This document shows, piece by piece, positions 1,026-29,150 of a DNA stretch of 64,000 nt (its first letter is position 1; each line of letters starts with the position of its first letter). The stretch is from Candidatus Buchananbacteria bacterium CG10_big_fil_rev_8_21_14_0_10_33_19. Its GTDB lineage: Bacteria > Patescibacteriota > Patescibacteriia > 2-01-FULL-39-33. The notes under the pieces are model-generated. The model was not told the origin of the DNA. It worked only from the letters and a program-made list of their open reading frames with translations, and did not search any database. The DNA lies in contig PEZY01000012.1 of NCBI GenBank assembly GCA_002773855.1, positions 4,255 through 68,254 on the forward strand, read 5' to 3'. Both the position numbers and the translations under genes were made by a program.

Positions 1026-1763
1026 ATGTTACCTAATACTGCTAAAATTTTTAATGATGATAATGAATACGTTACTTTGGCTGATCTAGCAAAATCAGAG
1101 AGTTATAGTTTGGAATATTTATCTGATTTAGCTAGTCGTGGCAAGCTAAAATCTTTTAAAATGGGTGATGAGTGGATTACAACTTTGGATTGGTTTAATG
1201 ATCATAAAAAGTTCATTAAAAAAGCCATTGAATTAGAAATAGCTAACCATCCAATTCATTATGAAACTAATTGGGTCGATTATGTCACAGATCATAATCC
1301 ATTTTTGAGATTTTCTAGGCAGTTGGTTATCATATTAGTTATTTTTTCATTTATTTCTTTTTCTTTGAGTTGGTTAATATTTTCTCCAACTGGTCATAAA
1401 TTTGCGGTAAATAGTAGGGAATTAACTAATAAAAAATATGTAATTGGTAATTATTTTTTATATTATACTGATAAAGTTATGACCCATAGTAATAATTATT
1501 TTTCCTATGTGGTTACAAATTCAATTAATTCAGTTGATCGATTGTCTAAGTCATTGGCTGTAGCCAGTCAAGATACAATCTATTTAGTTAAAGTAGTTGA
1601 TCAAAATATTGGTCAAAATAAAATATCAGATGAAATCATTACCAATAAATTAGATCAGTTAGTTGAGGGGATTAAGGCTAAATATCAAGCAGTAGCCGGA
1701 GACAGCGCTATTAGGCAACAAATCTATTTTAATGAGTGGGAAAATATTGGGAATACTAAATAG
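1026..1763 (+). CDS. hypothetical membrane protein with N-terminal excisionase/MerR-like HTH-looking segment
   Basis: 245 aa. The N-terminus YVTLADLAKSESYSLEYLSDLASRGKLKSFKMGDEWITTLDWFNDH resembles HTH_17/excisionase-type DNA-binding domains. A central TM helix (LVIILVIFSFISFSLSWLIF) follows. Confidence 0.4.
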   Translation: MLPNTAKIFNDDNEYVTLADLAKSESYSLEYLSDLASRGKLKSFKMGDEWITTLDWFNDHKKFIKKAIELEIANHPIHYETNWVDYVTDHNPFLRFSRQLVIILVIFSFISFSLSWLIFSPTGHKFAVNSRELTNKKYVIGNYFLYYTDKVMTHSNNYFSYVVTNSINSVDRLSKSLAVASQDTIYLVKVVDQNIGQNKISDEIITNKLDQLVEGIKAKYQAVAGDSAIRQQIYFNEWENIGNTK

Positions 1764-1855: not shown

Positions 1856-3232
1856 ATGTCGGTTAAAAAAGATGATTTAATGCAAAAAATAGTCTCTTTC
1901 TGTAAAAGAAGGGGCTTTGTTTTCCCTTCGTCAGAAATTTATGGTGGCTTTGCTAATGCTTATAGTTATGGTCCTTATGGCACAGAATTAAAAAACAATA
2001 TTAAAAAATTATGGTGGAAAAAATTTGTTCAAGATAGAGAGGATATTGTAGGTTTAGATGGTCCAATTATGCTTAATCCTAAATTGTGGCAAGCCTCTGG
2101 TCATACTAGTGGCTTTAATGATGCTATGGTTGATTGCAAGGACTGTAAAAAAAGATTTAGAGCTGATCATTTAGTTGAAGAATCAACCGGACAAGATTTA
2201 GAGGGGGATTTAGGGGCGATGTCTAAAACTTTAGTAACTGAAAAGGTTAAATGCCCTAATTGCGGTAAATCTAATTGGACTGAGGCCAGAAATTTTAACA
2301 TGATGTTTAAGACCGAAATGAATGGGATTGATGAGCCAGTTTATTTACGACCAGAAACAGCTGGTGCGATTTTTGTAGATTTTAAAAATGTCTTAGATTC
2401 TATGCGAGTTAAAATTCCATTTGGCATTGCTCAAATAGGTAAGGCTTTTCGTAACGAAATTATTGCTGGTAATTTTATTTTTCGTTTGCGGGAATTTGAA
2501 CAAATGGAAATAGAATATTTTATTGATCCAGAAATGAAATGGGAGCCATTGTTTGATAAGTGGTTGGATGTTCAGGAGGAATTTGTGTTAGCCTTGGGAG
2601 CTAATAAAGATGATATTAAGAGATACGAACATCCTAAAGAAAAATTATCACATTATTCTAAAAAAACCGTAGATATTCAGTATAATTTTCCATTTGGTTT
2701 TAGCGAACTTTATGGTTTGGCTCATCGTGGTGATTTTGATCTGTCTCAGCATGCCAAAGCATCTGGTGAAGATCTGGCTTATTTAGACCAGTCTGATAAT
2801 AATCGTAAATATATTCCTCATGTCTTAGAACCAACTTTTGGTGTTGATAGGAGCGTTCTAGTAGCGTTAACCGCTGCCTATACCGAAGAGGTAGTAGGTG
2901 ATGAAAGTCGAACGGTATTAAAATTTCCTAAGTCCATTGCTCCAATTAAAGTCGCTATTTTCCCATTATTAAAAAACAAAGAGAATTTAGTGTCCAAAGC
3001 TAAAGAAGTTTTTGATTCTTTAAAAGATAGTTTTATGTGTGAATTTGATGATAATGGTAACATTGGCAAAAGGTATAGACGACAAGATGAAATCGGCACA
3101 CCTTACTGTGTGACCATCGATTTTGATACCTTAGAAGACAACACAGTTACCATTCGTGATCGTGATAGTATGATTCAAGATAGAATATCTTTAGACTCGC
3201 TAAAAGATTATTTGGTTAAAAATCTTATTTAG
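1856..3232 (+). CDS. glyQS: glycine--tRNA ligase, dimeric class II type (GlyQS)
   Basis: 458 aa. N-terminal FVFPSSEIYGGFANAYSYGPYGTELKNNIKKLWW and later FRNEIIAGNFIFRLREFEQMEIEYF are hallmark class-II GlyRS motifs. The Zn-ribbon insertion CKDCKKRF...CPNCGK is present. Confidence 0.9.
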   Translation: MSVKKDDLMQKIVSFCKRRGFVFPSSEIYGGFANAYSYGPYGTELKNNIKKLWWKKFVQDREDIVGLDGPIMLNPKLWQASGHTSGFNDAMVDCKDCKKRFRADHLVEESTGQDLEGDLGAMSKTLVTEKVKCPNCGKSNWTEARNFNMMFKTEMNGIDEPVYLRPETAGAIFVDFKNVLDSMRVKIPFGIAQIGKAFRNEIIAGNFIFRLREFEQMEIEYFIDPEMKWEPLFDKWLDVQEEFVLALGANKDDIKRYEHPKEKLSHYSKKTVDIQYNFPFGFSELYGLAHRGDFDLSQHAKASGEDLAYLDQSDNNRKYIPHVLEPTFGVDRSVLVALTAAYTEEVVGDESRTVLKFPKSIAPIKVAIFPLLKNKENLVSKAKEVFDSLKDSFMCEFDDNGNIGKRYRRQDEIGTPYCVTIDFDTLEDNTVTIRDRDSMIQDRISLDSLKDYLVKNLI

Positions 3233-3316: not shown

Positions 3317-4573
3317 ATGTATAAATTAAAAAAATTAGCCAACAATGTTCAATTAATTACTACGCCAATAGTTGGCACGCAAACTGCTAGTCTGCTAGTT
3401 ATGGTGAAAGTTGGTTCTCGTCAAGAATCAGGTAGGCTTATTGGTATTTCTCATTTTATTGAACACCTAATGTTTAAGGGTACTAAAAGGAGACCAACCA
3501 CTTCAGATATTTCTAAGGAACTAGATGGTGTTGGTGCTGAGTTTAATGCTTTTACTGGCAAGGATTATACTGGTTATTATATTAAATCTGATACCAAACA
3601 TTTATCACTGGCTATTGATATTTTATCTGACATGTTAACTGCTTCGAAATTTGATCCAAAGGAAATTGAAAGAGAGAAGGGTGTGATTGTAGAAGAAATT
3701 AATATGTACGAGGATAATCCAATTATGCACGTGGAAGATTTATTGGAAAATATTATGTATAGTCCTCATCAATTAAGCGTAGATATTATTGGTACTAGAG
3801 AGACTGTTAAAGGCATGAGTCGAGAAGATTTAGTAACGTTTAAAGAGCGATTTTACGGTGGCGATAATATAGTTATCTCTTTAGCTGGTAATTTTACTGA
3901 TGGTCATATTACAGAAATTGAAAACAGTTTTAATTTTAAAACTGAACATGAGACTGTAGAAATTGATAGAATTTTTATTGATCAGGAGTCACCACGAGTT
4001 TCTGTGTCCTATAAAGAAACAGAACAAACACAACTAGCTATGGGTTTTCCAGCCTATTCTCATACAGATGAACGCTTACCAGCTTTGAGTTTGTTGTCAT
4101 TAGTATTGGGGGGTAATATGAGTTCAAGATTATTTATTTCTATTAGAGAGCGTAGTGGCTTGGCATATTCGATTAGATCTGGTTTAGATGTTCATGAGGA
4201 TATTGGTGCTTTAGTAATTAGAGCTGGACTAGATAAGTCTCGAATTGATGACGCAATTAAATTGATTTTAGTTGAACTTAATAAAATAAAAGAAGGCGTA
4301 ACTGAAGATGAACTAGCTAAAGCTAAAGAATGCCTGTTTGGTCGTACTGCTATTGATTTGGAAGATAGCTCTAGTGTGTCTAGTTGGTATGCGACTCAGC
4401 ATTTAATGACAGGAGAAGTGTTAACTCCAGCTGAAAAAAACGCTAAAATTAGCGCAGTTACTTTAGATGATATTGTGAAGGTGGCTAATGATGTTATTAA
4501 TTTAAATAAACTTAGCCTAGCAATTATTGGACCATTTAAGGATGATGAAAAATTTAAAAATCTCTTAAAATAA
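3317..4573 (+). CDS. M16 family (pitrilysin/insulinase-like) zinc peptidase
   Basis: 418 aa. Inverted zinc-binding motif HxxEH is present as HFIEHLMFKGT near the N-terminus, followed by the downstream EREKGVIVEEI glutamate region typical of M16. Confidence 0.8.
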   Translation: MYKLKKLANNVQLITTPIVGTQTASLLVMVKVGSRQESGRLIGISHFIEHLMFKGTKRRPTTSDISKELDGVGAEFNAFTGKDYTGYYIKSDTKHLSLAIDILSDMLTASKFDPKEIEREKGVIVEEINMYEDNPIMHVEDLLENIMYSPHQLSVDIIGTRETVKGMSREDLVTFKERFYGGDNIVISLAGNFTDGHITEIENSFNFKTEHETVEIDRIFIDQESPRVSVSYKETEQTQLAMGFPAYSHTDERLPALSLLSLVLGGNMSSRLFISIRERSGLAYSIRSGLDVHEDIGALVIRAGLDKSRIDDAIKLILVELNKIKEGVTEDELAKAKECLFGRTAIDLEDSSSVSSWYATQHLMTGEVLTPAEKNAKISAVTLDDIVKVANDVINLNKLSLAIIGPFKDDEKFKNLLK

Positions 4574-4576
4574 AAT

Positions 4577-5842
4577 ATGAGAATAGGTATTGATTGCCGG
4601 ACAATTTTAAATGTTCAAAAAGGTGAAAGAGCTGGCGTTGGCCATTATACTTATTTTTTGGTTAAAAATCTTATTGCTATTGATAAAATAAATAGTTATG
4701 TATTATTTTTTGATGATCGCTTAAAAGAAGACGTTGAAGAATTTAGAAAATATAGTAACGTGACGGTTAAATTTTTTCCATTTTATAGATATAAAAAATA
4801 TTTACCAATAGTGTACTCTCAATTATTTGTGAGTTTTATACTAAACCAAGAGAACTTAGACATATATCATTCTCCAGCTAATGTTATTCCATTTTTTTAT
4901 AATAAAAAATCAGTTGTTACAGTTCATGATTTAGGAATATATAAATATCCAGAATTTTTTCCTAGAAAATCATTAAGTCGTCAGTGGTTACCTAAAAAAA
5001 TATTTGTTCCTAATTCATTAAAAAAATCCGAAATAATTATTGCGGTATCTAAAAATACTAAAAAAGATATTATTGAGCAATTTAATATTTCTGAGGAAAA
5101 AATTGAAGTTATTTATGAAGGTCGTCCTGATGATTTAGAATCTTGTTCGTCAATTGGCGATTTTCAAATCATTGCCGACAAATACGGTATTGGTGGTAAG
5201 TTTGTTTTGTTTTTAGGCACTATTGAACCACGTAAAAATATTGTTAACTTAATTAAAGCTTTTAGAAGCTTACATTTAAGTTTTGATTCACCTTTGTCTG
5301 ATTACCAGTTAATTATCGCTGGTAACCAAGGTTGGGATTATAGGCCGATTTATCAAACTATCTCTGATGCTAATGCTAGTATTTTGGGTATTAAAAATAA
5401 GAGAACTAGTATAGAGAGACGTAATCAAATAATAAATATTGAAAATGAGAGACGCAGTGGTAGTGGTCGCAGGAAAAAACAACCAATTAAATACATTGGT
5501 TATGTTACTCATGATGAGAAAATTGGTCTGTTATGTAATTCAAAATGTTTTGTTTTCCCAAGTTTTTATGAAGGTTTTGGTTTGCCGGTTTTAGAGGCTA
5601 TGAGCTTGGGAGTGCCAGTTATTACATCTAATTTAAGTTCATTGCCAGAAATAACCGGAGAAGATGGGGCTATATTAATAAATCCCAATAAAGAATCAGA
5701 AATCAGTGAAGCAATCCATCAGATTATTACTAATGAAACAACCAGAGAATTGCTAATTAAAAATGGCTTAAAACGAGCTGATCATTTCCATTGGCGTAAA
5801 TGTGCTAGAGAGACGATTGCAATATATAATTCTATTAAATAA
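4577..5842 (+). CDS. GT4-family glycosyltransferase (GT-B fold), with a low-complexity insert
   Basis: 421 aa. C-terminal FPSFYEGFGLPVLEAMSLGVPVITSN is the classic GT4 EX7E region. An R/K/S-rich insert (RRNQIINIENERRSGSGRRKKQP) is unusual. Confidence 0.8.
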   Translation: MRIGIDCRTILNVQKGERAGVGHYTYFLVKNLIAIDKINSYVLFFDDRLKEDVEEFRKYSNVTVKFFPFYRYKKYLPIVYSQLFVSFILNQENLDIYHSPANVIPFFYNKKSVVTVHDLGIYKYPEFFPRKSLSRQWLPKKIFVPNSLKKSEIIIAVSKNTKKDIIEQFNISEEKIEVIYEGRPDDLESCSSIGDFQIIADKYGIGGKFVLFLGTIEPRKNIVNLIKAFRSLHLSFDSPLSDYQLIIAGNQGWDYRPIYQTISDANASILGIKNKRTSIERRNQIINIENERRSGSGRRKKQPIKYIGYVTHDEKIGLLCNSKCFVFPSFYEGFGLPVLEAMSLGVPVITSNLSSLPEITGEDGAILINPNKESEISEAIHQIITNETTRELLIKNGLKRADHFHWRKCARETIAIYNSIK

Positions 5843-6743: not shown

Positions 6744-6762
6744 CTAACTTTTAACTATCTTG

Positions 6763-6834
6763 TTGCGGGGGTGGGATTCGCACCCACGACCTCCAGGTTA
6801 TGGGCCTGGCGAGCTGCTACTGCTCTACCCCGCG
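6763..6834 (-). tRNA. initiator tRNA-fMet(CAT) with C1:A72 mismatch and A73; non-canonical C33 and G55
   Basis: Reverse complement: CGCGGGG-TA-GAGC-AGTAGCA-GCTC-G-CCAGG-CCCAUAA-CCTGG-AGGTC-GTGGG-TGCGAAT-CCCAC-CCCCGCA-A. The 5' CGCGGGG...CCCCGCAA closely matches E. coli tRNA-fMet acceptor features. The anticodon loop has C33 instead of U33, and the T-loop is TGCGAAT (G at position 55). Confidence 0.75.
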
Positions 6835-13514: not shown

Positions 13515-13739
13515 TGGTTTAAATTATTAAAATAATTAATATTGACAAATGCGATTTAATGTGATAATGTCTGAAAATATAAGAAGGTAATAGATATTAT
13601 TCTGTCTGCTAGTTGATAGATCTAGTTATCCCCCCTCCTGGTGACTTGATTTATCGCCAAACTATGATTCATTCATTTATGGATGACTTCATATACTAGT
13701 AGGCAGTATAATATCTATTATTATTTGTACCTTTTCAAG

Positions 13740-13815
13740 GCGAGGGTAGCCAAATTGGTAAGGCGGAAGTCTGCAAAGCTTCTAATTGTTGGTTCGAGTC
13801 CAGCTCCTTGCTCCA
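13740..13815 (+). tRNA. tRNA-Cys(GCA), CCA encoded
   Basis: GCGAGGG-TA-GCC-AAATTGGTAA-GGC-G-GAAGT-CUGCAAA-GCTTC-TAATT-GTTGG-TTCGAGT-CCAGC-TCCTTGC-T-CCA. Canonical 76-nt cloverleaf with two G-U pairs in the acceptor stem. Confidence 0.85.
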
Positions 13816-13851
13816 AGCCTACAGTCGTGTTTTAAGACACGTTAGTTCTTA

Positions 13852-13927
13852 CGGGATATAGCTCAATGAATAGAGCGCTCTGCCTAGTGTAGAGAGGTTG
13901 GTGGTCCAAATCCACTTATCCCGACCA
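13852..13927 (+). tRNA. tRNA of uncertain identity; canonical 76-nt cloverleaf but atypical anticodon loop CCUAGUG (nominal anticodon UAG; C33 and U37)
   Basis: CGGGATA-TA-GCTC-AATGAATA-GAGC-G-CTCTG-CCTAGTG-TAGAG-AGGTT-GGTGG-TCCAAAT-CCACT-TATCCCG-A-CCA. The short variable arm argues against a standard tRNA-Leu despite the UAG triplet. An alternative fold gives a 6-bp stem with a 5-nt loop CUAGU. Confidence 0.65.
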
Positions 13928-13942
13928 ATAACATTAACCAGT

Positions 13943-14029
13943 GCTCGTGTGGTGAAATTGGCAGACACGACGGACTTAAAATCCGTTGATCGTAAGATCA
14001 TGAGGGTTCAAGTCCCTTCTCGAGCACCA
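13943..14029 (+). tRNA. tRNA-Leu(TAA), class II with long variable arm, CCA encoded
   Basis: GCTCGTG-TG-GTGAAATTGGCAGACAC-G-ACGGA-CUUAAAA-TCCGT-TGATCGTAAGATCATGA-GGGTTCAAGTCCCTT-CTCGAGC-A-CCA. One U-U mismatch in the acceptor stem. A T-run follows the gene. Confidence 0.85.
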
Positions 14030-14042
14030 TTTTTTATAAAGT

Positions 14043-14118
14043 GGGAGTGTTAATTCAATTGGTTAGAACGTCGGCCACTGCCGATTAATGGGGGTTCGAG
14101 TCCCTCACGCTCCCGCCA
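14043..14118 (+). tRNA. tRNA-like gene with canonical D and T arms but an anomalous anticodon arm (6-nt loop CCACUG; no position 26), possible G-1/C73 His-like acceptor; possible tRNA pseudogene
   Basis: It has a perfect B-box (GGTTCGAGTCC) and a D-loop AATTGGTTAGAAC. The acceptor GGAGTGT pairs with ACGCTCC. Positions 1-73 span only 71 nt. No canonical 5-bp/7-nt anticodon arm can be drawn. The 3' end is C-GCCA. Confidence 0.4.
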
Positions 14119-14119
14119 T

Positions 14120-14686
14120 TTAATTAAACTTGTTCATGGCACTAGTTAGCGAAACATTCGTCACCTCTTCAATTGCGGAGGTGACTTTTTTTATTACTTC
14201 TTTTGCCTTGCTAGATTGTAATAAGCCAATTTTGGTCATGACATAATTAGCGCTGCCGATTTTTTCTTTTTTAGGTGTAGTTATGCCAATTTTAATTCTG
14301 ATAAAATCTTGAGTTTTAAGATATTGAATTATAGATTTAATACCATTGTGGCCGCCGGCTGATGAATTTTTGATTATCTTTAGACGACCTAATGGCAAAT
14401 CAATGTCATCATGAATAACAATAATGTCTTCAGGGTTTAGTTTATAATATTTAGCTATGGTTAGAACTGCGGACCCAGAATTATTCATAAAAGTTAACGG
14501 TTTTACGAGAATAATTTTTTCGTCACCAATATGACCGGTGGTTATTTCGGCTTTAAATTTTTTGTCAGCTTTAAATTTTTCAAAATTAAAAACATCAGCA
14601 ATATTATCCAAAGCTAAAAAACCAATGTTGTGCCAAGTTTTTAAATATTCTTTGCCCGGATTACCCAGGCCGATAACAAGCTTCAT
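14120..14686 (-). CDS. pth: peptidyl-tRNA hydrolase
   Basis: 188 aa. The protein starts MKLVIGLGNPGKEYLKTWHNIGFLALD. The catalytic His is in HNIG, and later GGHNGIKS. Bacterial Pth family. Confidence 0.9.
   Translation of the reverse strand: MKLVIGLGNPGKEYLKTWHNIGFLALDNIADVFNFEKFKADKKFKAEITTGHIGDEKIILVKPLTFMNNSGSAVLTIAKYYKLNPEDIIVIHDDIDLPLGRLKIIKNSSAGGHNGIKSIIQYLKTQDFIRIKIGITTPKKEKIGSANYVMTKIGLLQSSKAKEVIKKVTSAIEEVTNVSLTSAMNKFN
14160..14193 (+). terminator. plus-strand terminator for the tRNA cluster, embedded inside the 3' coding end of convergent pth
   Basis: GTCACCTC-ttcaattgcg-GAGGTGAC followed by TTTTTTT, about 42 nt downstream of the last tRNA-like gene. It lies within the last roughly 25 codons of pth on the opposite strand. 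Confidence 0.55.
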
Positions 14687-21535: not shown

Positions 21536-21572
21536 GGGAGGTGGAAATACATATTCACCTCCCATTTTTTTT
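21536..21572 (+). terminator. intrinsic terminator/attenuator between precursor and ATP-grasp genes (GGGAGGTG-12 nt-CACCTCCC-A-T8)
   Basis: Perfect 8-bp GC-rich stem followed by TTTTTTTT, placed 12 nt after the precursor stop and 26 nt before the ATP-grasp start. This precursor-attenuator-enzyme layout is typical of RiPP operons. Confidence 0.6.
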
Positions 21573-21597
21573 CATAAAAAACAAAAGGAGAGTAAAG

Positions 21598-22560
21598 ATG
21601 ATATTAGCTATTGGTAATTCAGGCTCATATGAGGTAGCAGCATTTAATTCCGTCTTAGAAGAATTGAAGAAAAATGGCGAAGAAGCAGTTCTATTTAAAC
21701 AAGATAAATGTCTCGATGGTGAATATTTAGTATTTGAAAGTAATAATGGAGTTACTGTTTATAACGTAATTATTGATGGTAAAGAATATAATATTGATTC
21801 CTTTTCTGCTATTTGGTATATGAAACCTCATCTACCATTAGAGCTAATGGAATTTGAGCCAGCCAAATATCAGCAATTTATTCAGCGTCAGTTTATTGCC
21901 ATGCGAAAAGCACTTTGGTATCTTTTTAAAGATAAAAAATGGATTGATGATCCAATTGTTATTGATAGGGCGGAAAATAAAATATTTCAATTAACCCTAG
22001 CAGAAAAGGCAGGCCTTTTATTGCCAGATACACTAATAACCTCTGATCCAGATAGAATAAGAAAATTTTATGTCGATACCAGTGGCGATTTGGTTGTTAA
22101 ATTATTAGGGTCTAGTCCAATGGTTAATGAAGTCATTTTTACTAATGTGGTAACGCCTGAGTATATGGTTAAAATAGATTCGGTAAAAATGTCACCCTCT
22201 ATTTTTCAACGACGTATTCTAAAAGCCTATGAATTGAGGATAACAATTGTTGGTGATAAAATTTTCCCGATAAAAATTTATTCTCAGGGCGATGAACAAT
22301 TGGAATTGGATTGGCGTAGAAAGCCCAAACTTAATGATTTTGAAGCTAAGATGGAATTAACATCTCTGCCCAGTGAGGTAGAGAAAAAATTAGTATCATT
22401 TATGAAATTAATTGGTTTGCGTTTTGGCTGTATTGATATGATAGTTACTCCAGATGGGGAATATGTCTTTTTAGAAATTAATCCAAATGGGCAGTGGTAT
22501 TTTATCCAACTTCGTATTGAAGTTGAAATAGCCAAAGCGATAGCTACACTTTTACTATAA
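21598..22560 (+). CDS. ATP-grasp ligase, RimK/MdnC-like (candidate graspetide macrocyclase)
   Basis: 321 aa from ATG 21598 (RBS AAAGGAG). The track's 21541 start overlaps the terminator hairpin. N-terminal pre-ATP-grasp domain MILAIGNSGSYEVAAFNSVLEELKKNGEEAVLF, a central ATP-grasp region, and C-terminal GCIDMIVTPDGEYVFLEINPNGQW (E-x-N plus NGQW, as in microviridin-type ligases). Confidence 0.6.
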   Translation: MILAIGNSGSYEVAAFNSVLEELKKNGEEAVLFKQDKCLDGEYLVFESNNGVTVYNVIIDGKEYNIDSFSAIWYMKPHLPLELMEFEPAKYQQFIQRQFIAMRKALWYLFKDKKWIDDPIVIDRAENKIFQLTLAEKAGLLLPDTLITSDPDRIRKFYVDTSGDLVVKLLGSSPMVNEVIFTNVVTPEYMVKIDSVKMSPSIFQRRILKAYELRITIVGDKIFPIKIYSQGDEQLELDWRRKPKLNDFEAKMELTSLPSEVEKKLVSFMKLIGLRFGCIDMIVTPDGEYVFLEINPNGQWYFIQLRIEVEIAKAIATLLL

Positions 22561-23884: not shown

Positions 23885-24469
23885 ATGTATAAAAAAATAA
23901 AAGAATTAACTAATATATCATCTGGGTATACTTTTCGCGGATCTATCAAAAATGATTCAAAAGGAAATATTTTTGTAATCCAGGCAAAAAATATTTATGC
24001 TAATAAAGATATTATAAATATTGATGGCTTTTCGACAATATTAGATGATTCTATAAGAAATCCATTTTTTTTAGAATATAATGATATATTACTGGTTAGT
24101 AGAGGTTCTGGCTTTAATTCTTTTCGTTCTGCTGTTTTTACATCTAATATAAAGAATGTAATGCCATCGTCTTCAGTACATGTGATTCGTGTTAAAGATG
24201 TGAATATAATTCCAAAATATCTGTCTTTATATTTAAATTCAGATATTGGACAAAAATCATTATATCAAATTGTTACTGGTGGTGCATATATTCAGAGTAT
24301 GCTCATTAAGGATTTAAATGAATTAGAAATTCCAATACCACCTATTAATACCCAAAAATCTATTATAGCAATTCACGAAAACGCAGCAAAACAAGAATTA
24401 TTGTATACAAGAAAACAAGAGATTCAAAAAAACATTATTAATTCAATATTTATTAATCTGACAAAATAA
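23885..24469 (+). CDS. hsdS: Type I R-M specificity subunit, half-size (single target-recognition domain)
   Basis: 194 aa, a single TRD followed by the conserved HsdS helical region LNELEIPIPPINTQKSIIAIHENAAKQELL (compare LP.L.EQ..I). It is half the length of the downstream hsdS. Confidence 0.65.
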   Translation: MYKKIKELTNISSGYTFRGSIKNDSKGNIFVIQAKNIYANKDIINIDGFSTILDDSIRNPFFLEYNDILLVSRGSGFNSFRSAVFTSNIKNVMPSSSVHVIRVKDVNIIPKYLSLYLNSDIGQKSLYQIVTGGAYIQSMLIKDLNELEIPIPPINTQKSIIAIHENAAKQELLYTRKQEIQKNIINSIFINLTK

Positions 24470-24473
24470 TTTT

Positions 24474-24704
24474 ATGAAGAACAAGCCATACAAGACAATT
24501 AAAGAAACACCTTCTGGTCGCAATAAGAAAAGTATTAATTTAAATAATCTTTCAAGGGAAAAGAATAAAGAACTGATTAAAAAAGTAGAGACTGTAGGCG
24601 TACCAGGTTATCACGTTGTAAAGCGTAAAGGTGAGAAAAAATTTTTACGATCTAATCTTGATCGAAGGAAAAAGAATAATCTAGATCCTAAAATTAATAA
24701 ATAA
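24474..24704 (+). CDS. hypothetical small lysine-rich protein
   Basis: 76 aa, 30% K/R, tightly packed between hsdS-half and hsdM. No motif. Confidence 0.3.
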   Translation: MKNKPYKTIKETPSGRNKKSINLNNLSREKNKELIKKVETVGVPGYHVVKRKGEKKFLRSNLDRRKKNNLDPKINK

Positions 24705-24705
24705 T

Positions 24706-26217
24706 ATGACTACAAAAAAATACACACAAGAAGATTTGAATAAAATCCTCTGGCAAGCAGCGGATTCTTCACGCACTCAAGTAGATGCAGGGATCTATAA
24801 AGACTATGTGCTTGTAATGCTTTTTTTTAAATATCTTTCTGACCTTTCAAAGAAAAAGCATAATGAGTATAAAGAGCGTTTTGGTAATGACGAAAAGCGT
24901 ATTGAAGAGAAGATGAAACTCGATCGTTTTTATCTACCGCCAAAAGTTTCTTTTGATTATATTTATAAAGTTATTGAACAAGACAATCTCGGAGAAGAAA
25001 TAGACAAAGCACTTCACGCAATCGAAGACGCAAACAAAGAAAAACTTGAGAATATGTTTTTAAATGTGTCATTTAATTCTGAAGTCTTAGGGAAAAGCCA
25101 AGAACGAAACAAGATGCTTCGGCACCTTGTGCATGATTTTGCAAAAATAGATTTGTCAGATGTAAAAGACGACATCATTGGTAATTCATATATGTATATG
25201 ATCGAACGCTTTGGAGCCGATGCGGGCAAAAAAGCGGGAGAATTCTTTACTGTCAGAAATGTTGCACATCTTGTAGCAAAATTCGCTGAACCAAAGGCAG
25301 GAAGTCGTATTTGTGATCCTTGTATGGGTTCAGGTGGACTACTCCTTCTTGCGGGTGAAGAGGTAGAAAAACTAGGCTCAAAAAATTATGCTCTGTATGG
25401 ACAAGAATCTACTGGTTCAACCTATCAATTAGCACGGATGAACATGTTCCTTCATGGAAAAGATTCTGCACGACTGGAGTGGGGCGACACACTAAACAAT
25501 CCACTCCTTGTTGAAAATGACAAGTTGATGAAATTTGACACCATTGTTGCTAATATGCCATTTTCTCTCAGCAAATGGGGTGCTGAAAATGCCGGCGGAG
25601 ATAAATATAACCGCTTTTGGAGAGGTGTTCCGCCAAAGGACAAAGGAGATTTTGCTTTCATAACTCATATGGTTGAAACACTTAAGGCAAAAACTGGACG
25701 AATGGTGGCCATTGCTCCTCACGGGGTACTCTTTAGAGGTGGTGCCGAGGGGAAGATTCGAGAACAATTACTTAAAGAAAATGTGATCGATGCAGTGATC
25801 GGACTTCCTGCAGGACTTTTCCAAACAACTGGTATTCCTGTGGCAATTCTTATTCTTGATCGAACGCGTGAAAAAGGTGGAGAAAATGAAAAAACAAAAG
25901 ATGTCTTCTTTATTGAAGCATCAAAAGAATTCAAAGCACAAAAGGCTCAGAATATTTTGACTGATGAGAATATTGAAAAAATTTATTCTACCTACAAAAA
26001 GCGCAAGGATGTAGAAAAACTTGCTCGTAAGGTTTCTATCAAAGAGATTGAAGAAAATGATTTCAATCTTAATATAACTCGGTATGTTGACACCTTTGTC
26101 GAAGAAGAACCTGTCGACATCAAGGCAAACCTTGAGGAATTGGCGAAACTTGAACCAGAACTTCAAAAACTTGAAAAACAAATGGTCGAATATTTAAAGG
26201 AATTAGGAATCAAATAA
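24706..26217 (+). CDS. hsdM: Type I R-M N6-adenine DNA methyltransferase subunit
   Basis: 503 aa. N-terminal HsdM_N-like region (LWQAADSSR...[16 protein letters not shown]), AdoMet motif [13 protein letters not shown], and motif IV VANMPFS (NPPF-like). Confidence 0.9.
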
Positions 26218-26221
26218 ATAT

Positions 26222-27511
26222 ATGAATGAAATAATATGTCCAAATTGTAGTAAAGCATTTAAAGTTGACGAAGCAGGGTTTGCTGAGATTTTGAAGCAAG
26301 TTCGTGATCATCAGTTTGATGAAGAGTTACAAAAGAGGCTAAGTCTTGCAGACAAAGAAAAAGAAAGTGCAGTAAAATTAGCAGAAGCAAATATTAAAAA
26401 TTCTTTTCAAGAGCAACTTGCAAAAAAAGATAATGAGTTAACAGAATTAAAATCTCAAAGTGAGTTAGAGTTATCTGAAAAACTTGGCAAAAAAGAAGCT
26501 GAGATAACTCAACTAAAAGCAAAAATTGACAACATTGAAGTTGAAAAAAAACTTGCTATGAATGAAGCGGTGCAAAAGATTGAGAAAGAACGGGACATCT
26601 TATCTAATGATCTGAAAACAATAGAATTAGAAAAACAAAACCTTGAAAGTTCTTTGAAGCAACAATTTTCAACAGAACTGCAAAATAAAGATGCAATAAT
26701 AAAATATAAAGATGATGAAATTGCTCGTGTGAGAGATATGAAGTTAAAACTCTCGACTAAAATGTTAGGAGAAACACTTGAACAACATTGTGAAATTGAA
26801 TTTAACAAACTTCGTGCAACAGCATTTCAAAAAGCATATTTTGAAAAAGATAATGACTCAAAGTCTGGTAGTAAGGGAGACTTTATTTATAGAGAGAATG
26901 ACGAATTAGGAAATGAAATTATTTCAATAATGTTTGAAATGAAAAATGAGGGTGATGAAACAGCAACCAAGAAAAAGAATGAAGATTTTTTAAAGGAGCT
27001 TGACAAAGACCGTACAGAGAAAAATTGTGAGTATGCTGTTCTTGTTTCTCTCTTAGAATCAGAGAGTGAATTTTATAATTCAGGTATTGTGGATGTCTCA
27101 CATAAATACAGTAAGATGTATGTTGTTAGACCTCAATTTTTTATTCCCATAATAACCTTACTTCGAAATGCTGCAGTGAACTCTATGCAGTATAAAGCAG
27201 AACTCTCATTAGTTAGAAATCAAAATATTGATATTACTAACTTTGAAGAAAAAATGAACAAGTTTAAGGAAGGGTTTGCAAAGAATTACGATTTGGCAAG
27301 TCGTAAATTCAAGGAAGCAATAGACGGAATTGATAAAACAATAAAGGAATTAGAAAAAACCAAGCTTGCTTTGTTGTCGTCTGAAAATAATTTGCGACTT
27401 GCAAATGATAAAACAGAAGAGTTAACTATTAAGAAATTAACTCATGATAATCCCACAATGAAAGATAAATTTAAAAAACTAAGTAATTCCAATGAAAATT
27501 TAGAATTATAA
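26222..27511 (+). CDS. DUF2130-like protein (N-terminal zinc ribbon, long coiled coil, C-terminal globular domain) embedded in the R-M operon
   Basis: 429 aa. It starts [15 protein letters not shown] (C-x2-C ribbon), then an extensive heptad-rich region, then a conserved C-terminal block ([24 protein letters not shown]). This is the architecture of DUF2130 proteins commonly found in R-M and defence loci. Confidence 0.55.
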
Positions 27512-27563
27512 AAATTCGACTGAATAGTCGCTAAACTAATTATTAATTAATAAAATATTATTT

Positions 27564-27887
27564 ATGCAAAATAAAGAAAATTTTCTAAAGGCAATTGATG
27601 AAAAGTTGAAAATAAAAATAACTTTTAACTCAATTGAAAAAGGAGAAATCACTAGAACTTGTGTTCCTTTTGATTTTGGTCCATCACAAAAAGATGATGC
27701 AATTGATAAATCAAATAAATATCATGTTCTAGATTTAGATTCGCCAGAAGGAAAACCGCATAATCTTGCTGTCGCAGAAGACAAAATGATTAATATTGAA
27801 ATTCTTCAAGAAAAATTTAATCCAGATGATTATGTAACTTGGACTCCTAACTGGATTTACCCAAGAGATTGGGGTAATAAATCATAG
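27564..27887 (+). CDS. hypothetical protein
   Basis: 107 aa ORF between DUF2130 and hsdS, with no motif. Codon usage is similar to the surrounding R-M genes. Confidence 0.35.
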   Translation: MQNKENFLKAIDEKLKIKITFNSIEKGEITRTCVPFDFGPSQKDDAIDKSNKYHVLDLDSPEGKPHNLAVAEDKMINIEILQEKFNPDDYVTWTPNWIYPRDWGNKS

Positions 27888-27952
27888 TTTTAAGTTAGTT
27901 AGATACACGTATTTAAATAGGTGTATCTATACTGTTTTAAAACAGTAATTTT

Positions 27953-29146
27953 ATGAAAACTAATCAAACACAAAAAAATATTCCTACTGAATGGCAAGAA
28001 ACAAGGCTTGTTGATATTGGCGTATTTTCAAAAGGTTCTGGGATAACGAAAGATCAACTTATAGTGACTGGTCATAACGCTATTCGATATGGTGAATTAT
28101 ATACAAAATATAATTTTAAAATTGAAAAAGTTTATTCACATATACCGACAGAAATAATACCCACAACAACTAAAATTAAATATGGAGACATCTTGCTTGC
28201 AGGGTCTGGTGAAACTAATGAAGAAATTGGAAAATCAGCAACCTATCTTTTACATGAAGACTGTTACGCTGGGGGTGATTTAATTATATTTAGTCCTAAA
28301 AATGCAAATAGTTTATTTCTATCGTATTTTTTAAACATCGGAGAAGGTAGGAAAAAATTAACTGAGTTAGGGCAAGGTCAGTCCGTTGTGCATATCTATA
28401 AAAGTGAAGTTGAGAAATTAAAACTACATTTACCATCTCTTCCTGAACAGAATAGGATTGTTTCAGTTATAGAAACTTGGGATAAATCTATTGAAAAACT
28501 TTCAAATAAAATTGAAATTAAAAAACAAATAAAAAAAGGTTTGATGCAAGATTTGTTGACCGGAAAGAAGAGGTTGCAGGGATTTAATGATAAATGGAGA
28601 TTTGTAAATCTTGGTGGTACTTGTCAGGAGATTAAAACTGGAAAGTTGGATGCAAATGCAATGGTAAAAAATGGTAAGTATAGATTTTATACTTGTGCTA
28701 AAGATTTTTATCTTATTGATGATTATGCTTTTGATACAGAGGCACTACTTGTATCTGGCAACGGTGCAAATGTTGGATATGTTCATTATTACAAAGGCAA
28801 GTTCAATGCGTACCAAAGGACATACGTATTGTATGAATTTAATGAAAATATTCTATTTATTAAATATTTATTAGATATATTTCTAAAGATTCGAATAAAA
28901 GAAGAAGTTCGTGAAGGTAATACACCTTATATAACTATGGATACGCTGACGGATATGAGTTTGAAAATACCGTCGAAGAAAGAACAGCAAAGAATTGTAA
29001 ATATATTAAGCACTGCAGACGAAGAAATAAAAAGACTTGAGAATAAATTAAAGATACTAAAAGAACAAAAACGATACCTCCTCAACAATCTCATCACTGG
29101 CACAATTCGTACACCAGAAACTTTATTAGCAAAATTAACCAAATAA
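27953..29146 (+). CDS. hsdS: Type I R-M specificity subunit, full length (two TRDs)
   Basis: 397 aa with two repeats of the conserved HsdS spacer helices: LPSLPEQNRIVSVIETWDKSIEKL and IPSKKEQQRIVNILSTADEEIKRLE. Confidence 0.85.
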   Translation: MKTNQTQKNIPTEWQETRLVDIGVFSKGSGITKDQLIVTGHNAIRYGELYTKYNFKIEKVYSHIPTEIIPTTTKIKYGDILLAGSGETNEEIGKSATYLLHEDCYAGGDLIIFSPKNANSLFLSYFLNIGEGRKKLTELGQGQSVVHIYKSEVEKLKLHLPSLPEQNRIVSVIETWDKSIEKLSNKIEIKKQIKKGLMQDLLTGKKRLQGFNDKWRFVNLGGTCQEIKTGKLDANAMVKNGKYRFYTCAKDFYLIDDYAFDTEALLVSGNGANVGYVHYYKGKFNAYQRTYVLYEFNENILFIKYLLDIFLKIRIKEEVREGNTPYITMDTLTDMSLKIPSKKEQQRIVNILSTADEEIKRLENKLKILKEQKRYLLNNLITGTIRTPETLLAKLTK

Positions 29147-29150
29147 ATAT

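What the first reader, a model, noticed from the sequence alone, without database searches (positions are those of the whole stretch)
13852..14118. Two non-canonical tRNA genes in the plus-strand tRNA cluster
The gene at 13852..13927 is a perfect 76-nt cloverleaf with A73-CCA, but its anticodon loop reads CCUAGUG. That is C at position 33 (normally an invariant U), U at 37 (normally a purine) and a nominal anticodon UAG, with a short class-I variable arm, so it is not a normal tRNA-Leu. The same region can alternatively form a 6-bp stem with a 5-nt CUAGU loop. The gene at 14043..14118 has textbook A and B boxes but is 2 nt short. No 5-bp/7-nt anticodon arm can be drawn; the best fold has a 6-nt loop CCACUG. 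Its 3' end is C73 then GCCA, with a G at -1, which is tRNA-His-like. These could be decoding oddities, mis-annotated variants or decaying pseudogenes.
Basis: seen in the sequence. Interest (0 to 1): 0.55.

Follow-up and report, generated by a model that had tools for sequence, protein, structure and literature searches.

The report
Conserved tRNA look-alikes that cannot decode
Two genes in a tRNA operon of a tiny uncultured (CPR) bacterium fold like tRNAs but have ruined anticodon loops. Relatives keep the same two genes with intact bodies and ever-changing anticodon arms, so they look like retained non-decoding tRNA-like RNAs rather than errors, code changes or plain decaying pseudogenes.

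Summary
Both objects are real. ARAGORN and Rfam call tRNAs at 13852-13927 and 14043-14118, with aberrant anticodon loops: CCUAGUG (C33, U37) and a 4-nt CACU loop.

The window comes from a Patescibacteria (Falkowbacteria-like) genome. Relatives with 66-88% Pth identity share the layout promoter, unknown ncRNA, tRNA-Cys, gene #2, tRNA-Leu(UAA), gene #4, terminator.

- **Gene #2** descends from tRNA-Pro(UGG): C1:G72, A73, T-loop UCCAAAU. Its orthologues read UGG, CGG or UAG, or have truncated or expanded arms. Two relatives also carry a separate canonical tRNA-Pro(UGG).
- **Gene #4** belongs to a discrete family with a covarying 8-bp acceptor stem, then G73 and CCA. Loops are 4, 7 or 8 nt, or sit on a 9-bp stem. 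It is not tRNA-His-like.

Stems are about 96% paired with compensatory changes. Bodies are as conserved as the neighbouring tRNA-Cys and tRNA-Leu, although synonymous sites are near saturation. CUA and CUG codons still align with Leu, never Pro. Independent assemblies give identical sequences.

Best reading: non-decoding tRNA-like RNAs kept for a role of the acceptor/T-arm half. That role is unknown; a processing handle or non-ribosomal partner is inferred. The main rival is slow, repeated inactivation of redundant tRNAs.

The parts
13543..13571 (+). Conserved promoter-like element (TTGACA, 15 nt, GATAAT) at the head of the stable-RNA operon
   Evidence: Read from the sequence. The same TTGACA...GATAAT/GCTAAG arrangement is present upstream of the cluster in L211, L082, L083, L228, L212, L087 and L229. 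The consensus scan missed it because the spacer is 15 nt. Function is inferred.
13588..13720 (+). Unknown ~133-nt structured RNA with a C-rich loop (CCCCCCUCCUG), first gene of the operon
   Evidence: Nine homologues give 52 predicted pairs, 7 with compensatory change. No Rfam family matches.
13740..13815 (+). Canonical tRNA-Cys(GCA) with U73-CCA
   Evidence: ARAGORN. Rfam 58.7 bits. Present in all relatives that carry the Pro-like gene.
13826..13841 (+). Small hairpin followed by a U-rich tract between tRNA-Cys and #2 (terminator-like or processing site)
   Evidence: Terminator-like hit. In L082 and L212 the hairpin is kept with a different sequence.
13852..13927 (+). Gene #2: tRNA-Pro(UGG)-derived tRNA-like RNA. 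It has C1:G72, A73-CCA, loop CCUAGUG (13883-13889; A35 at 13886), T-loop UCCAAAU and no G18G19
   Evidence: Detection. Orthologues: L211, L228, L082, L212, L227, L083, L085, L087. Stem covariation. Model R2 scores canonical tRNA-Pro 67-79 bits.
13943..14029 (+). Canonical class II tRNA-Leu(UAA) with A73-CCA
   Evidence: ARAGORN. Rfam 55.3 bits.
14043..14118 (+). Gene #4: tRNA-like RNA with an 8-bp acceptor stem (14043-14050 / 14107-14114), G73 (14115), CCA, a normal D/T elbow, and a closed anticodon hairpin UCGGC-CACU-GCCGA (14071-14084)
   Evidence: Detection. Family members: L211, L212/L223, L230, L087. Pair counts. Model R1 separates the family (73-95 bits) from all other tRNAs (50 bits or less).
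14160..14192 (+). Intrinsic-terminator-like hairpin plus T-run ending the operon, inside the 3' end of the convergent pth gene
   Evidence: 9-bp stem, 5 G-C pairs, tail TTTTTTTATT.

Best explanation
Both genes are tRNA-derived RNAs that are still made and shaped like tRNAs but no longer read codons.

Gene #2 is an old copy of tRNA-Pro(UGG). Relatives carry a second, canonical tRNA-Pro(UGG) in the same cluster, which would do the decoding. Gene #4 belongs to a separate family with an 8-bp acceptor stem plus G73-CCA.

In both families selection keeps the acceptor stem, discriminator, CCA, T-arm and the stems. The anticodon loop is free to mutate, shrink, close into a tight hairpin or expand.

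Inferred steps, not shown: the operon is transcribed from the conserved promoter; RNase P and 3' trimming release both RNAs with CCA ends; they then act through the acceptor/T-arm 'top half'. Two roles seem most likely. One is a processing handle that gives RNase P a cut site next to neighbouring stable RNAs, like a t-element. The other is a ligand or carrier for a protein that recognises the acceptor end. The conserved 8-bp geometry of #4 favours a specific partner and would disfavour EF-Tu delivery.
For: 1. Real tRNA folds with aberrant loops.

2. Conserved synteny. Every relative that has tRNA-Cys in this cluster has the Pro-like gene right after it: L211 (88% Pth identity), L228 (80), L082 (76), L212 (76), L083 (72), L085 (69), L087 (66).

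3. Hypervariable anticodon arms.
- Gene #2 family loops: CCUAGUG, CCUGGUG, CCUGGGG, CCCGGUG, CCUAGGG, a 22-nt loop, an 11-nt whole arm, and an 11-nt loop.
- Gene #4 family loops: CACU, CAUCGUU, UCUAGUUA, a 9-bp stem with UGAUGA, and one canonical CUGAUAA.

4. Stems are maintained.
- Gene #2 family: 96.3% of cells paired, 7 pairs changed on both sides, covariation 0.304 against 0.218±0.021 in shuffles (0/500), and 29-49% paired when the partners are slid.
- Gene #4 family: 96.5% paired, the 8-bp acceptor is 100% paired with 5 compensatory pairs including the eighth, covariation 0.524 against 0.297±0.049 (0/500).
- Between the window and L211, every stem substitution in #4 preserves pairing.

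5. Purifying selection on the body.
- The Pro-like body has mean pairwise identity 0.81, against 0.83 for tRNA-Cys and 0.82 for tRNA-Leu.
- Four-fold degenerate sites of pth are only 26-49% identical to all relatives but L211, and 31% is expected at saturation.
- Against L211, spacers are 67-85% identical, #2 is 93% and #4 is 89%.

6. Redundancy. L228 and L085 carry both the Pro-like gene and a canonical tRNA-Pro(UGG).

7. No recoding. In the window, CUA aligns with Leu in 78% of columns and CUG in 89%; Pro is not among the residues tabulated.

8. Genuine decay looks different. L083 keeps only a truncated remnant of #4 that lacks the T-arm, yet its Pro-like body is intact.

9. An 8-bp acceptor stem lowers EF-Tu affinity about 100-fold in tRNA-Sec (review PMC7609411).
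Against: - No expression, processing or aminoacylation data exist. The function is pure inference.
- Three Pro-like orthologues have an acceptor-stem defect: U2xC71 in L082, A4xA69 in L085 and a bulge in L087. This fits relaxed constraint.
- Gene #4 is missing in L082, L085 and L213, absent or replaced by a different 7-bp tRNA-like in L228, and degraded in L083. Any role it has is dispensable.
- Four Pro-like orthologues keep a proline anticodon (UGG or CGG) in a 7-nt loop and might still decode. If so, body conservation could be inherited from recent function.
- The samples are small (9 and 5 sequences) and related by descent, so the shuffle controls overstate significance.
- The metagenome hits were selected by a pattern that required the T-loop and GACCA. 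Only the synteny-derived loci are unbiased.
- The rest of the window's genome could not be read, so a canonical tRNA-Pro(UGG) and tRNA-Leu(UAG) elsewhere are assumed, not shown.
Confidence: 0.55

Rival explanations
1. Redundant tRNA genes that have been knocked out repeatedly and recently. The Pro-like gene (and #4's ancestor) is a working but dispensable isodecoder in some lineages. Anticodon-arm mutations inactivated it independently in the window and in several relatives. The bodies look conserved only because too little time has passed, or because deletion is slow.
For: - Proline anticodons persist in L211, L228 and L227 (UGG) and in L082 (CGG).
- A canonical tRNA-Pro(UGG) makes the copy dispensable.
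- Acceptor-stem mismatches occur in L082, L085 and L087.
- Gene #4 is patchy and L083 holds a truncated remnant.
- The cluster is a hotspot of insertions and rearrangements.
Against: - At least 5 of 9 Pro-like lineages and 4 of 5 #4 lineages have a non-decoding arm, yet all keep about 96% stem pairing, with compensatory changes, invariant discriminator and CCA.
- Body identity equals that of functional tRNA-Cys and tRNA-Leu across lineages whose synonymous sites are near saturation.
- Even the 'UGG' versions carry C33 and a C32:G38 pair and lack G18G19, so the aberrant state is old and shared.
- Streamlined genomes of this kind are expected to delete dead genes. This is a general expectation and was not tested here.
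Confidence: 0.25
2. The variable anticodon arms are the functional part. The tRNA body would be a scaffold, and the loop a base-pairing module: a guide, decoy, or kissing partner for another RNA. One version is a loop-loop contact between #2 and #4.
For: - Stems are kept while loops change in length and sequence.
- In the three genomes that carry both genes with short loops, the two loops can form 4-5 contiguous pairs: AGUG/CACU in the window, UGGUG/CAUCG in L211, CUAGG/UCUAG in L212. The window-specific G35A change is matched by C to U in #4.
Against: Non-cognate combinations of loops pair just as well (4-5 pairs). With loops this short the complementarity is at chance level. No target was identified. 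Several lineages carry only one of the two genes.
Confidence: 0.08
3. They are working decoders with unusual loops. Gene #2 would be a tRNA(UAG) that inserts Pro or Leu at CUN, or suppresses UAG through a shifted CUA. Gene #4 would be a frameshift-type tRNA with a 6-nt loop.
For: Both have intact acceptor ends and CCA. UAG arose twice, in the window and in L212. The literature records tRNAs with non-7-nt loops that decode, such as the yeast mitochondrial tRNA-Thr(UAG) with an 8-nt loop (PMC7609411).
Against: - CUA (49 uses in five genes) and CUG align with Leu and never Pro in relatives.
- No class II variable arm is present for LeuRS, and A35 removes a key ProRS determinant (established identity rules).
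- The closest relative has UGG instead.
- The loop closes to 5 nt through C32:G38.
- Gene #4's loop differs in every orthologue, and its 8-bp acceptor stem disfavours EF-Tu.
Confidence: 0.05
4. Assembly or sequencing artefacts in a metagenome-assembled genome.
For: The window's exact variants (A35 in #2 within this lineage; the 3-nt shorter loop in #4) could not be re-checked in a second assembly of the same organism.
Against: - The same family-level oddities (C33, C32:G38, C55, 8-bp acceptor stem, odd loops) occur in relatives.
- Sequences are identical in independent assemblies from different sources: L210/L211, L081/L082, L083/L084/L214, L085/L086, L212/L223.
- The differences are not in homopolymers.
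Confidence: 0.02

Closest known systems
Bacterial tRNA-Pro(UGG)
   Same: Gene #2 has C1:G72, A73-CCA and a class I variable loop. It shares the T-arm GGUGG-UCCAAAU-CCACY with canonical tRNA-Pro(UGG) genes in other CPR-like contigs (L215, L216, L217, L222). Model R2 scores those canonical genes 69-79 bits, within the family range of 67-99. Close orthologues still read UGG or CGG.
   Different: The window copy reads UAG (A35). It has C33 and U37, a C32:G38 pair closing the loop to 5 nt, and no G18G19. Orthologues have truncated or expanded arms. A separate canonical tRNA-Pro(UGG) coexists in L228 and L085.
tRNA-Sec and allo-tRNAs (long acceptor stems)
   Same: Gene #4 has an 8-bp acceptor stem, a 5-bp T-stem, then G73-CCA. 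This is the 8/5 geometry of bacterial tRNA-Sec (PMC7609411).
   Different: No long variable arm, no 6-bp D-stem, no UCA anticodon. Allo-tRNAs are 8/4 or 9/3 (12 bp in total) with long variable arms (PMC5389517 abstract); #4 has 13 bp and a 5-nt variable loop.
tRNA-His (G-1:C73)
   Same: An extra G:C pair sits on top of the acceptor helix.
   Different: In tRNA-His the CCA follows C73 directly. Here an unpaired G73 intervenes in all five family members. There is no GUG anticodon in any member.
Pseudo-tRNA 'tRNA-Other' of Bacillus cereus, and non-proteinogenic tRNA-Gly of Staphylococcus
   Same: These are tRNA paralogues that do not serve ribosomal decoding yet are retained and have cellular roles (PMC3399842 abstract; the Staphylococcus case is from general knowledge). 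Altered D- and T-loop elements parallel #2.
   Different: Those RNAs keep a normal 7-nt anticodon loop and are recognised by an aaRS. Here the anticodon arm itself is the variable or destroyed part. The two genes form syntenic families across a CPR clade, and no phenotype or charging is known.
t-elements and other tRNA-like processing signals (plant mitochondria)
   Same: These are tRNA-like structures with a conserved acceptor/T-arm and a degenerate anticodon region. They lie inside polycistronic transcripts and are cut by RNase P and RNase Z to form neighbouring RNA ends (PMC1920247 abstract).
   Different: That is an organellar system. The genes here are full cloverleaves with encoded CCA and maintained anticodon stems, and cleavage has not been shown.

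Membership tests
Canonical decoding (elongator) tRNA | Cloverleaf with a 7-bp acceptor stem, discriminator and CCA | tested here: inconclusive
   Gene #2 meets it. Gene #4 has an 8-bp acceptor stem supported by covariation.
Canonical decoding (elongator) tRNA | 5-bp anticodon stem with a 7-nt loop, U33 and a purine at 37 | tested here: not met
   Gene #2 has C33, U37 and a C32:G38 closure. Gene #4 has a 4-nt loop, or 6 nt if the last pair opens.
Canonical decoding (elongator) tRNA | Anticodon conserved among orthologues | tested here: not met
   Gene #2 family: UAG, UGG, CGG, or no usable anticodon. Gene #4 family: five different arms.
Canonical decoding (elongator) tRNA | Elbow elements G18G19 and T54-U55-C56 | tested here: inconclusive
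   Gene #2 lacks GG and has C55. Gene #4 has GG and UUCGAGU. C55 also occurs in canonical-looking CPR tRNAs, so on its own it is not disqualifying.
tRNA-Leu(UAG) | Class II long variable arm | tested here: not met
   Gene #2 has a 5-nt variable loop. The genuine tRNA-Leu genes in the window are 85-87 nt with long arms.
tRNA-Pro(UGG) | Acceptor identity C1:G72 and A73, and overall sequence kinship | tested here: met
tRNA-Pro(UGG) | G35 and G36 in a normal anticodon loop | tested here: not met
   The window has A35 (13886). Orthologues with G35G36 still have C33 and C32:G38.
tRNA-His | G-1:C73 followed directly by CCA, and a GUG anticodon | tested here: not met
   The 3' end is an 8-bp helix, then G, then CCA in all five members. 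No member has GUG.
tRNA-Sec | 8/5 acceptor/T geometry with G73 | tested here: met
tRNA-Sec | Long variable arm, extended D-stem, UCA anticodon | tested here: not met
   5-nt variable loop, 3-4-bp D-stem, no UCA.
Allo-tRNA | 12-bp acceptor branch (8/4 or 9/3) with a long variable arm | tested here: not met
   Gene #4 is 8/5 (13 bp) with a short variable loop (definition from PMC5389517).
Neutrally decaying tRNA pseudogene | Substitutions accumulate at the neutral rate and without regard to pairing | tested here: not met
   Body identity is 0.81, against 0.26-0.49 at four-fold sites. About 96% of stem cells are paired, with compensatory changes. Some acceptor mismatches do exist (L082, L085, L087).
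t-element-like processing signal | Conserved acceptor/T-arm with a degenerate anticodon region, inside a polycistronic transcript | tested here: met
t-element-like processing signal | Demonstrated RNase P / RNase Z cleavage that forms neighbouring RNA ends | not testable with these tools
   Needs RNA end mapping or in-vitro cleavage.
Non-proteinogenic (non-ribosomal donor) tRNA | Aminoacylated by an aaRS and used by a transferase | not testable with these tools
   No charging data. The part of the window scanned with Pfam (about 20 of 48 ORFs) shows no Fem-type or related transferase. The only aaRS seen there is GlyRS (1856-3232).

The most novel reading that the evidence does not exclude
A clade of CPR bacteria maintains, under purifying selection, a class of 'anticodon-less' tRNA-like RNAs. 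These have full tRNA bodies with encoded CCA, and anticodon arms that are closed into tight hairpins or replaced by idiosyncratic insertions. One family has a tRNA-Sec-like 8/5 acceptor geometry but a class I body. They would serve a non-decoding role through the acceptor/T-arm half, for example as dedicated partners of an unknown protein or as RNase P handles in organisms with few RNases. Further examples in relatives (L228, L088, L227, L213, L229) suggest the phenomenon is broader than these two genes.
Probability: 0.4. Interest if true: 0.7.

Novelty: new variant of a known kind. Interest (0 to 1): 0.55.

Why it matters
tRNA-finders label such genes as tRNA-Leu(UAG), 'undetermined' or pseudogenes. 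That distorts tRNA inventories and genetic-code inference for CPR genomes, where a 'tRNA(UAG)' with a proline-type body could be mistaken for a code change.

If the two families are functional non-decoding RNAs, they add a bacterial example of tRNA bodies recruited for other work. They also provide a natural 8/5 class I scaffold, which is of interest for tRNA engineering. Finally, they give a concrete handle on how RNA processing or tRNA-dependent chemistry works in organisms with minimal gene sets. The operon also holds an undescribed structured RNA.

Tried and rejected
- **14-mer T-arm scan of viral contigs.** Specific patterns for #2 and #4 found nothing in viral contigs, so there is no sign of a phage origin.
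- **Recoding of CUN to Pro.** Rejected by the codon-alignment test.
- **tRNA-His reading of #4.** Rejected.
- **Loop-loop 'kissing' between #2 and #4.** Cognate loops pair over 4-5 nt, but non-cognate pairs do as well. Inconclusive at chance level.
- **Ancestry of #4.** A G·U pair that would be G3:U70 exists only in L230. Unresolved.
- **Intron explanation.** Small insertions in anticodon arms of relatives might be removed after transcription. This cannot explain the window genes, which have normal-length or shortened arms.
- **Rfam.** Nothing except RF00005 for the odd genes, and no family for the upstream ncRNA.
- **Literature searches.** No description of these CPR tRNA-likes was found.
- **Pfam/NCBIfam scan of about 20 window proteins.** No tRNA-dependent transferase was found.
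Full report
**Observation**

The plus-strand cluster at 13740-14118 holds four ARAGORN calls:
- tRNA-Cys(GCA), 13740-13815
- 'tRNA-Leu(tag)', 13852-13927 (called #2 here)
- tRNA-Leu(UAA), 13943-14029
- 'tRNA-???' with a 2-nt anticodon, 14043-14118 (called #4 here)

Rfam's tRNA model scores #2 and #4 at 47.3 and 46.1 bits. The gathering score is 29, and the window-wide E-values are 5e-7 and 1e-6. Both score below their neighbours (58.7 and 55.3), and in both alignments the model jumps over the anticodon loop.

Gene #2 reads CGGGAUA-UA-GCUC-AAUGAAUA-GAGC-G-CUCUG-CCUAGUG-UAGAG-AGGUU-GGUGG-UCCAAAU-CCACU-UAUCCCG-A-CCA.
- It also has C55 in the T-loop and no G18G19.
- The minimum-energy fold is a cloverleaf in which C32:G38 closes the loop to 5 nt.

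Gene #4 reads GGGAGUGU-UA-AUUC-AAUUGGUUA-GAAC-G-UCGGC-CACU-GCCGA-UUAAU-GGGGG-UUCGAGU-CCCUC-ACGCUCCC-G-CCA.
- Its anticodon arm is a 5-bp stem with a tetraloop.
- The acceptor helix has 8 pairs, followed by G73 and CCA.

**Context**

The Pth protein next to #4 is identical to one annotated in 'Candidatus Falkowbacteria bacterium', and the nearest relatives are Buchananbacteria or Patescibacteria MAGs. GC content is 31-38%.

The four genes lie in one apparent operon:
- a conserved TTGACA-N15-GATAAT promoter (13543-13571)
- an unknown ~133-nt structured RNA (13588-13720)
- tRNA-Cys
- a small hairpin with a U-tract (13826-13841)
- gene #2
- tRNA-Leu(UAA)
- gene #4
- a strong terminator-like hairpin (14160-14192)

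**Comparative evidence**

I fetched loci around Pth homologues: L211 (88% identity), L228 (80), L230 (77), L082 and L212 (76), L083 (72), L213 (71), L085 (69), L087 (66), L229 (63), L088 (59) and L089 (55). Most share the order Der, Pth, RNA cluster, DprA, TopA; the short contigs L228 and L230 show only part of it.

Every relative with tRNA-Cys in the cluster has a homologue of #2 directly after it. All have C1:G72, A73-CCA and the T-arm GGUGG-UCCAAAU-CCAYY. Their anticodon regions differ:

| Locus | Anticodon region of the #2 homologue |
|---|---|
| window | CCUAGUG |
| L211 | CCUGGUG |
| L228 | CCUGGGG |
| L227 (from the metagenome scan) | CCUGGGG |
| L082 | CCCGGUG |
| L212 | CCUAGGG |
| L083 | 22-nt loop containing an 11-nt tandem duplication |
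| L085 | whole arm reduced to 11 nt |
| L087 | 11-nt loop |

A pattern scan of metagenome contigs also returned canonical tRNA-Pro(UGG) genes. These have the same unusual T-loop, normal CU-UGG-GA loops and G18G19 (L215, L216, L217, L222). A covariance model of the #2 family scores these canonical genes at 69-79 bits, inside the family range of 67-99. Gene #2 is therefore a derivative of tRNA-Pro(UGG). L228 and L085 carry both the Pro-like gene and a separate canonical tRNA-Pro(UGG) in the same cluster, so in those relatives the Pro-like copy is redundant for decoding.

Gene #4 has homologues next to the pth 3' end in L211, L212 (identical in L223), L230 and L087. All have the 8-bp acceptor stem plus G73-CCA. 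Their anticodon arms all differ:

| Locus | Anticodon arm of the #4 homologue |
|---|---|
| window | 5-bp stem, loop CACU |
| L211 | loop CAUCGUU |
| L212 | loop UCUAGUUA, with a bulged stem |
| L230 | 9-bp stem, loop UGAUGA |
| L087 | canonical CUGAUAA |

A model of this family scores members at 73-95 bits and every other tRNA in 242 kb of CPR loci at 50 bits or less. It is a discrete family. It is absent from L082, L085 and L213. L228 has a different 7-bp tRNA-like with an ~85-nt insertion at that position. L083 retains only a truncated remnant without the T-arm.

**Selection**

*Stem pairing.* On the nine Pro-like sequences, 96.3% of stem cells are standard pairs and 7 of 21 pairs show changes on both sides. 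The covariation score is 0.304, against 0.218±0.021 in shuffles (0/500). Structures with the partners slid by 1-3 columns pair only 29-49%. On the five #4 sequences, 96.5% of cells pair. [quoted passage not shown] Covariation is 0.524, against 0.297±0.049 (0/500). These samples are small and related by descent, so the numbers indicate direction rather than formal significance.

*Rate of change.* The Pro-like body without its anticodon arm has mean pairwise identity 0.81. tRNA-Cys has 0.83 and tRNA-Leu(UAA) 0.82 over the same genomes. Four-fold degenerate sites of pth are only 26-49% identical between the window and every relative except L211 (78%). The expectation at saturation is 31%.

*Closest relative.* Against L211, spacers are 67-85% identical, tRNA-Cys 92%, tRNA-Leu 93%, #2 93% and #4 89%. 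All six substitutions in #4 lie in stems and preserve pairing: 29:41 and 49:65 change from G:C to A:U, and two pairs switch between wobble and Watson-Crick.

Neutral decay of the bodies is thus excluded. Change is concentrated in the anticodon loops and, for #2, in the D-loop.

**Not decoders, not artefacts**

Five window genes were aligned to the relatives:

| Codon | Aligned columns | Main aligned residue | Pro |
|---|---|---|---|
| CUA | 363 | Leu 78% | none tabulated |
| CUG | 72 | Leu 89% | none tabulated |
| CCA | 340 | Pro 86% | - |

CUA is used 49 times and CCA 48 times in these five genes, so real tRNA-Leu(UAG) and tRNA-Pro(UGG) genes must exist elsewhere in the genome. This is an inference.

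The odd genes are identical in assemblies made independently from different data sources: L210/L211, L081/L082, L083/L084/L214, L085/L086 and L212/L223.

**Mechanism (inferred)**

Three features stand out.
- What is conserved is what RNase P, 3' trimming enzymes and acceptor-end binding proteins see: the acceptor stem, discriminator, CCA and T-arm, plus enough stem structure to fold.
- What is free is what the ribosome and most aaRSs need: the anticodon loop and, in #2, the elbow G18G19.
- In several genes the anticodon arm has become a tight closed hairpin. Examples are 6 bp with 5 nt, 5 bp with 4 nt, 9 bp with 6 nt, and in relatives 12 bp with 4 nt and 7 bp with 4 nt.

I therefore read both genes as non-decoding tRNA-like RNAs kept for a 'top-half' role. 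Two concrete versions are plausible.
- They may be RNase P handles that define the ends of neighbouring stable RNAs. An example is freeing the 13-nt trailer of tRNA-Leu from the terminator hairpin. This is analogous to plant mitochondrial t-elements (PMC1920247).
- They may be ligands or carriers for a protein that reads the acceptor end. The covarying 8-bp acceptor stem of #4 favours this version. In tRNA-Sec the 8-bp acceptor stem weakens EF-Tu binding about 100-fold (PMC7609411).

Neither version is shown.

The main rival is that these are redundant tRNAs knocked out repeatedly. Evidence for it: acceptor mismatches in L082, L085 and L087, the patchy distribution of #4, and the UGG or CGG anticodons retained in four lineages. 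Evidence against it: pairing-preserving evolution and tRNA-like conservation persist in the lineages whose arms are already ruined.

**Comparison with known systems**

- Gene #2 is tRNA-Pro by descent but fails the anticodon-loop criteria.
- Gene #4 shares only the 8/5 geometry and G73 with tRNA-Sec. It fails the tests for tRNA-His, tRNA-Sec and allo-tRNA.
- The nearest functional analogies are retained pseudo-tRNAs (B. cereus tRNA-Other, PMC3399842), non-proteinogenic tRNAs and t-elements. Each differs in keeping a normal anticodon loop, or in being organellar.
- I found no description of such genes in CPR bacteria.

**Verdict**

The finding is real and moderately interesting. It is best filed as a new variant of the known kind 'tRNA-derived, non-decoding tRNA-like RNA'. 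I give about 55% confidence to retained function, about 25% to slow recurrent inactivation, and small residual probabilities to loop-based function, decoding and artefact.

Noticed in passing
window 13588-13720 (+), with promoter-like element at 13543-13571: Undescribed ~133-nt structured RNA at the head of the tRNA operon. It has a 25-bp closing helix, a hairpin presenting CCCCCCUCCUG (an anti-Shine-Dalgarno-like, C-rich loop), and a second variable hairpin that is missing in L085 and L213. Nine homologues give 52 pairs, 7 of them compensatory. No Rfam family matches.
   Followed up: partly
window 13826-13841 (+): Small hairpin plus U-tract between tRNA-Cys and #2. The structure is conserved but the sequence is replaced in L082 and L212. 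It could be a partial terminator or a processing site.
   Followed up: partly
L083 ~4830-4935 (-), L228 ~1300-1395 (-), L229 ~2665-2760 (-); L085 ~5180-5300 (-), L213 ~3860-3945 (-), L229 ~2770-2860 (-): Two further unknown structured RNAs sit in the same operon of relatives. One reads GAGGAGAUGGAUUUCU...CUUGGGAGAACCCAAGCAUCUCCUC. The other reads GACGGGGCGUGACU...GGCGCCCC. Neither reaches any Rfam gathering score, and both are absent from the window.
   Followed up: no
L228 908-996 and 657-810; L088 4847-4945; L227 983-1058; L213 3572-3642; L229 2869-2941 (all - strand): More tRNA-like genes with intact acceptor/T halves but closed or hugely expanded anticodon arms. Examples: a 12-bp stem with a tetraloop, an ~85-nt insertion, a 29-nt insertion, and a 7-bp stem with UAUU plus G73-CCA. 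The phenomenon seems general in this clade.
   Followed up: partly
L215, L216, L217, L221, L222, L226 (tRNA genes); window 6762-6834 (-): Otherwise canonical tRNA-Pro, tRNA-Lys and tRNA-Ile genes in CPR-like contigs have C at position 55 (T-loop UCCAAAU or UCCAAGU). The window's initiator-like tRNA-Met has UGCGAAU (G55). The near-universal U55 seems not to be required in these organisms. These hits were selected by a pattern, so no frequency can be stated.
   Followed up: no
L211 ~3650-3826 (-); L212 ~3590-3770 and ~3900-3990 (-): Insertions sit inside the tRNA cluster of relatives. L211 has ~180 nt between tRNA-Leu and #4 that ends with a duplicate of the tRNA-Leu 3' end, like a target-site duplication. 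L212 has repeated cctgcctg...ggcagg elements and a broken tRNA. These look like small mobile elements targeting tRNA genes.
   Followed up: no
L085 4651-4727 (-): The 'tRNA-Ala(UGC)' of this relative has a 5' acceptor strand (GGGGCGG) that pairs poorly with its 3' strand (CGUCUCC). That 3' strand resembles the 3' strand of the #4-family member in L087, which suggests a chimeric gene formed by recombination between tRNA genes.
   Followed up: no
window 14120-14192: The tRNA operon's terminator hairpin lies inside the 3' coding end of the convergent pth gene, and #4 ends 1 nt from the pth stop codon. The two transcription units must therefore overlap in antisense.
   Followed up: no
window 21541-22560; 23885-32342; 46999-57009: Three other features: an ATP-grasp ribosomal-peptide maturase-like gene; a type I restriction-modification region with two specificity subunits and a DUF2130 protein (the 1063-aa ORF at 29151-32342 was not scanned); and a giant 3336-aa ORF that was not scanned.
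   Followed up: partly
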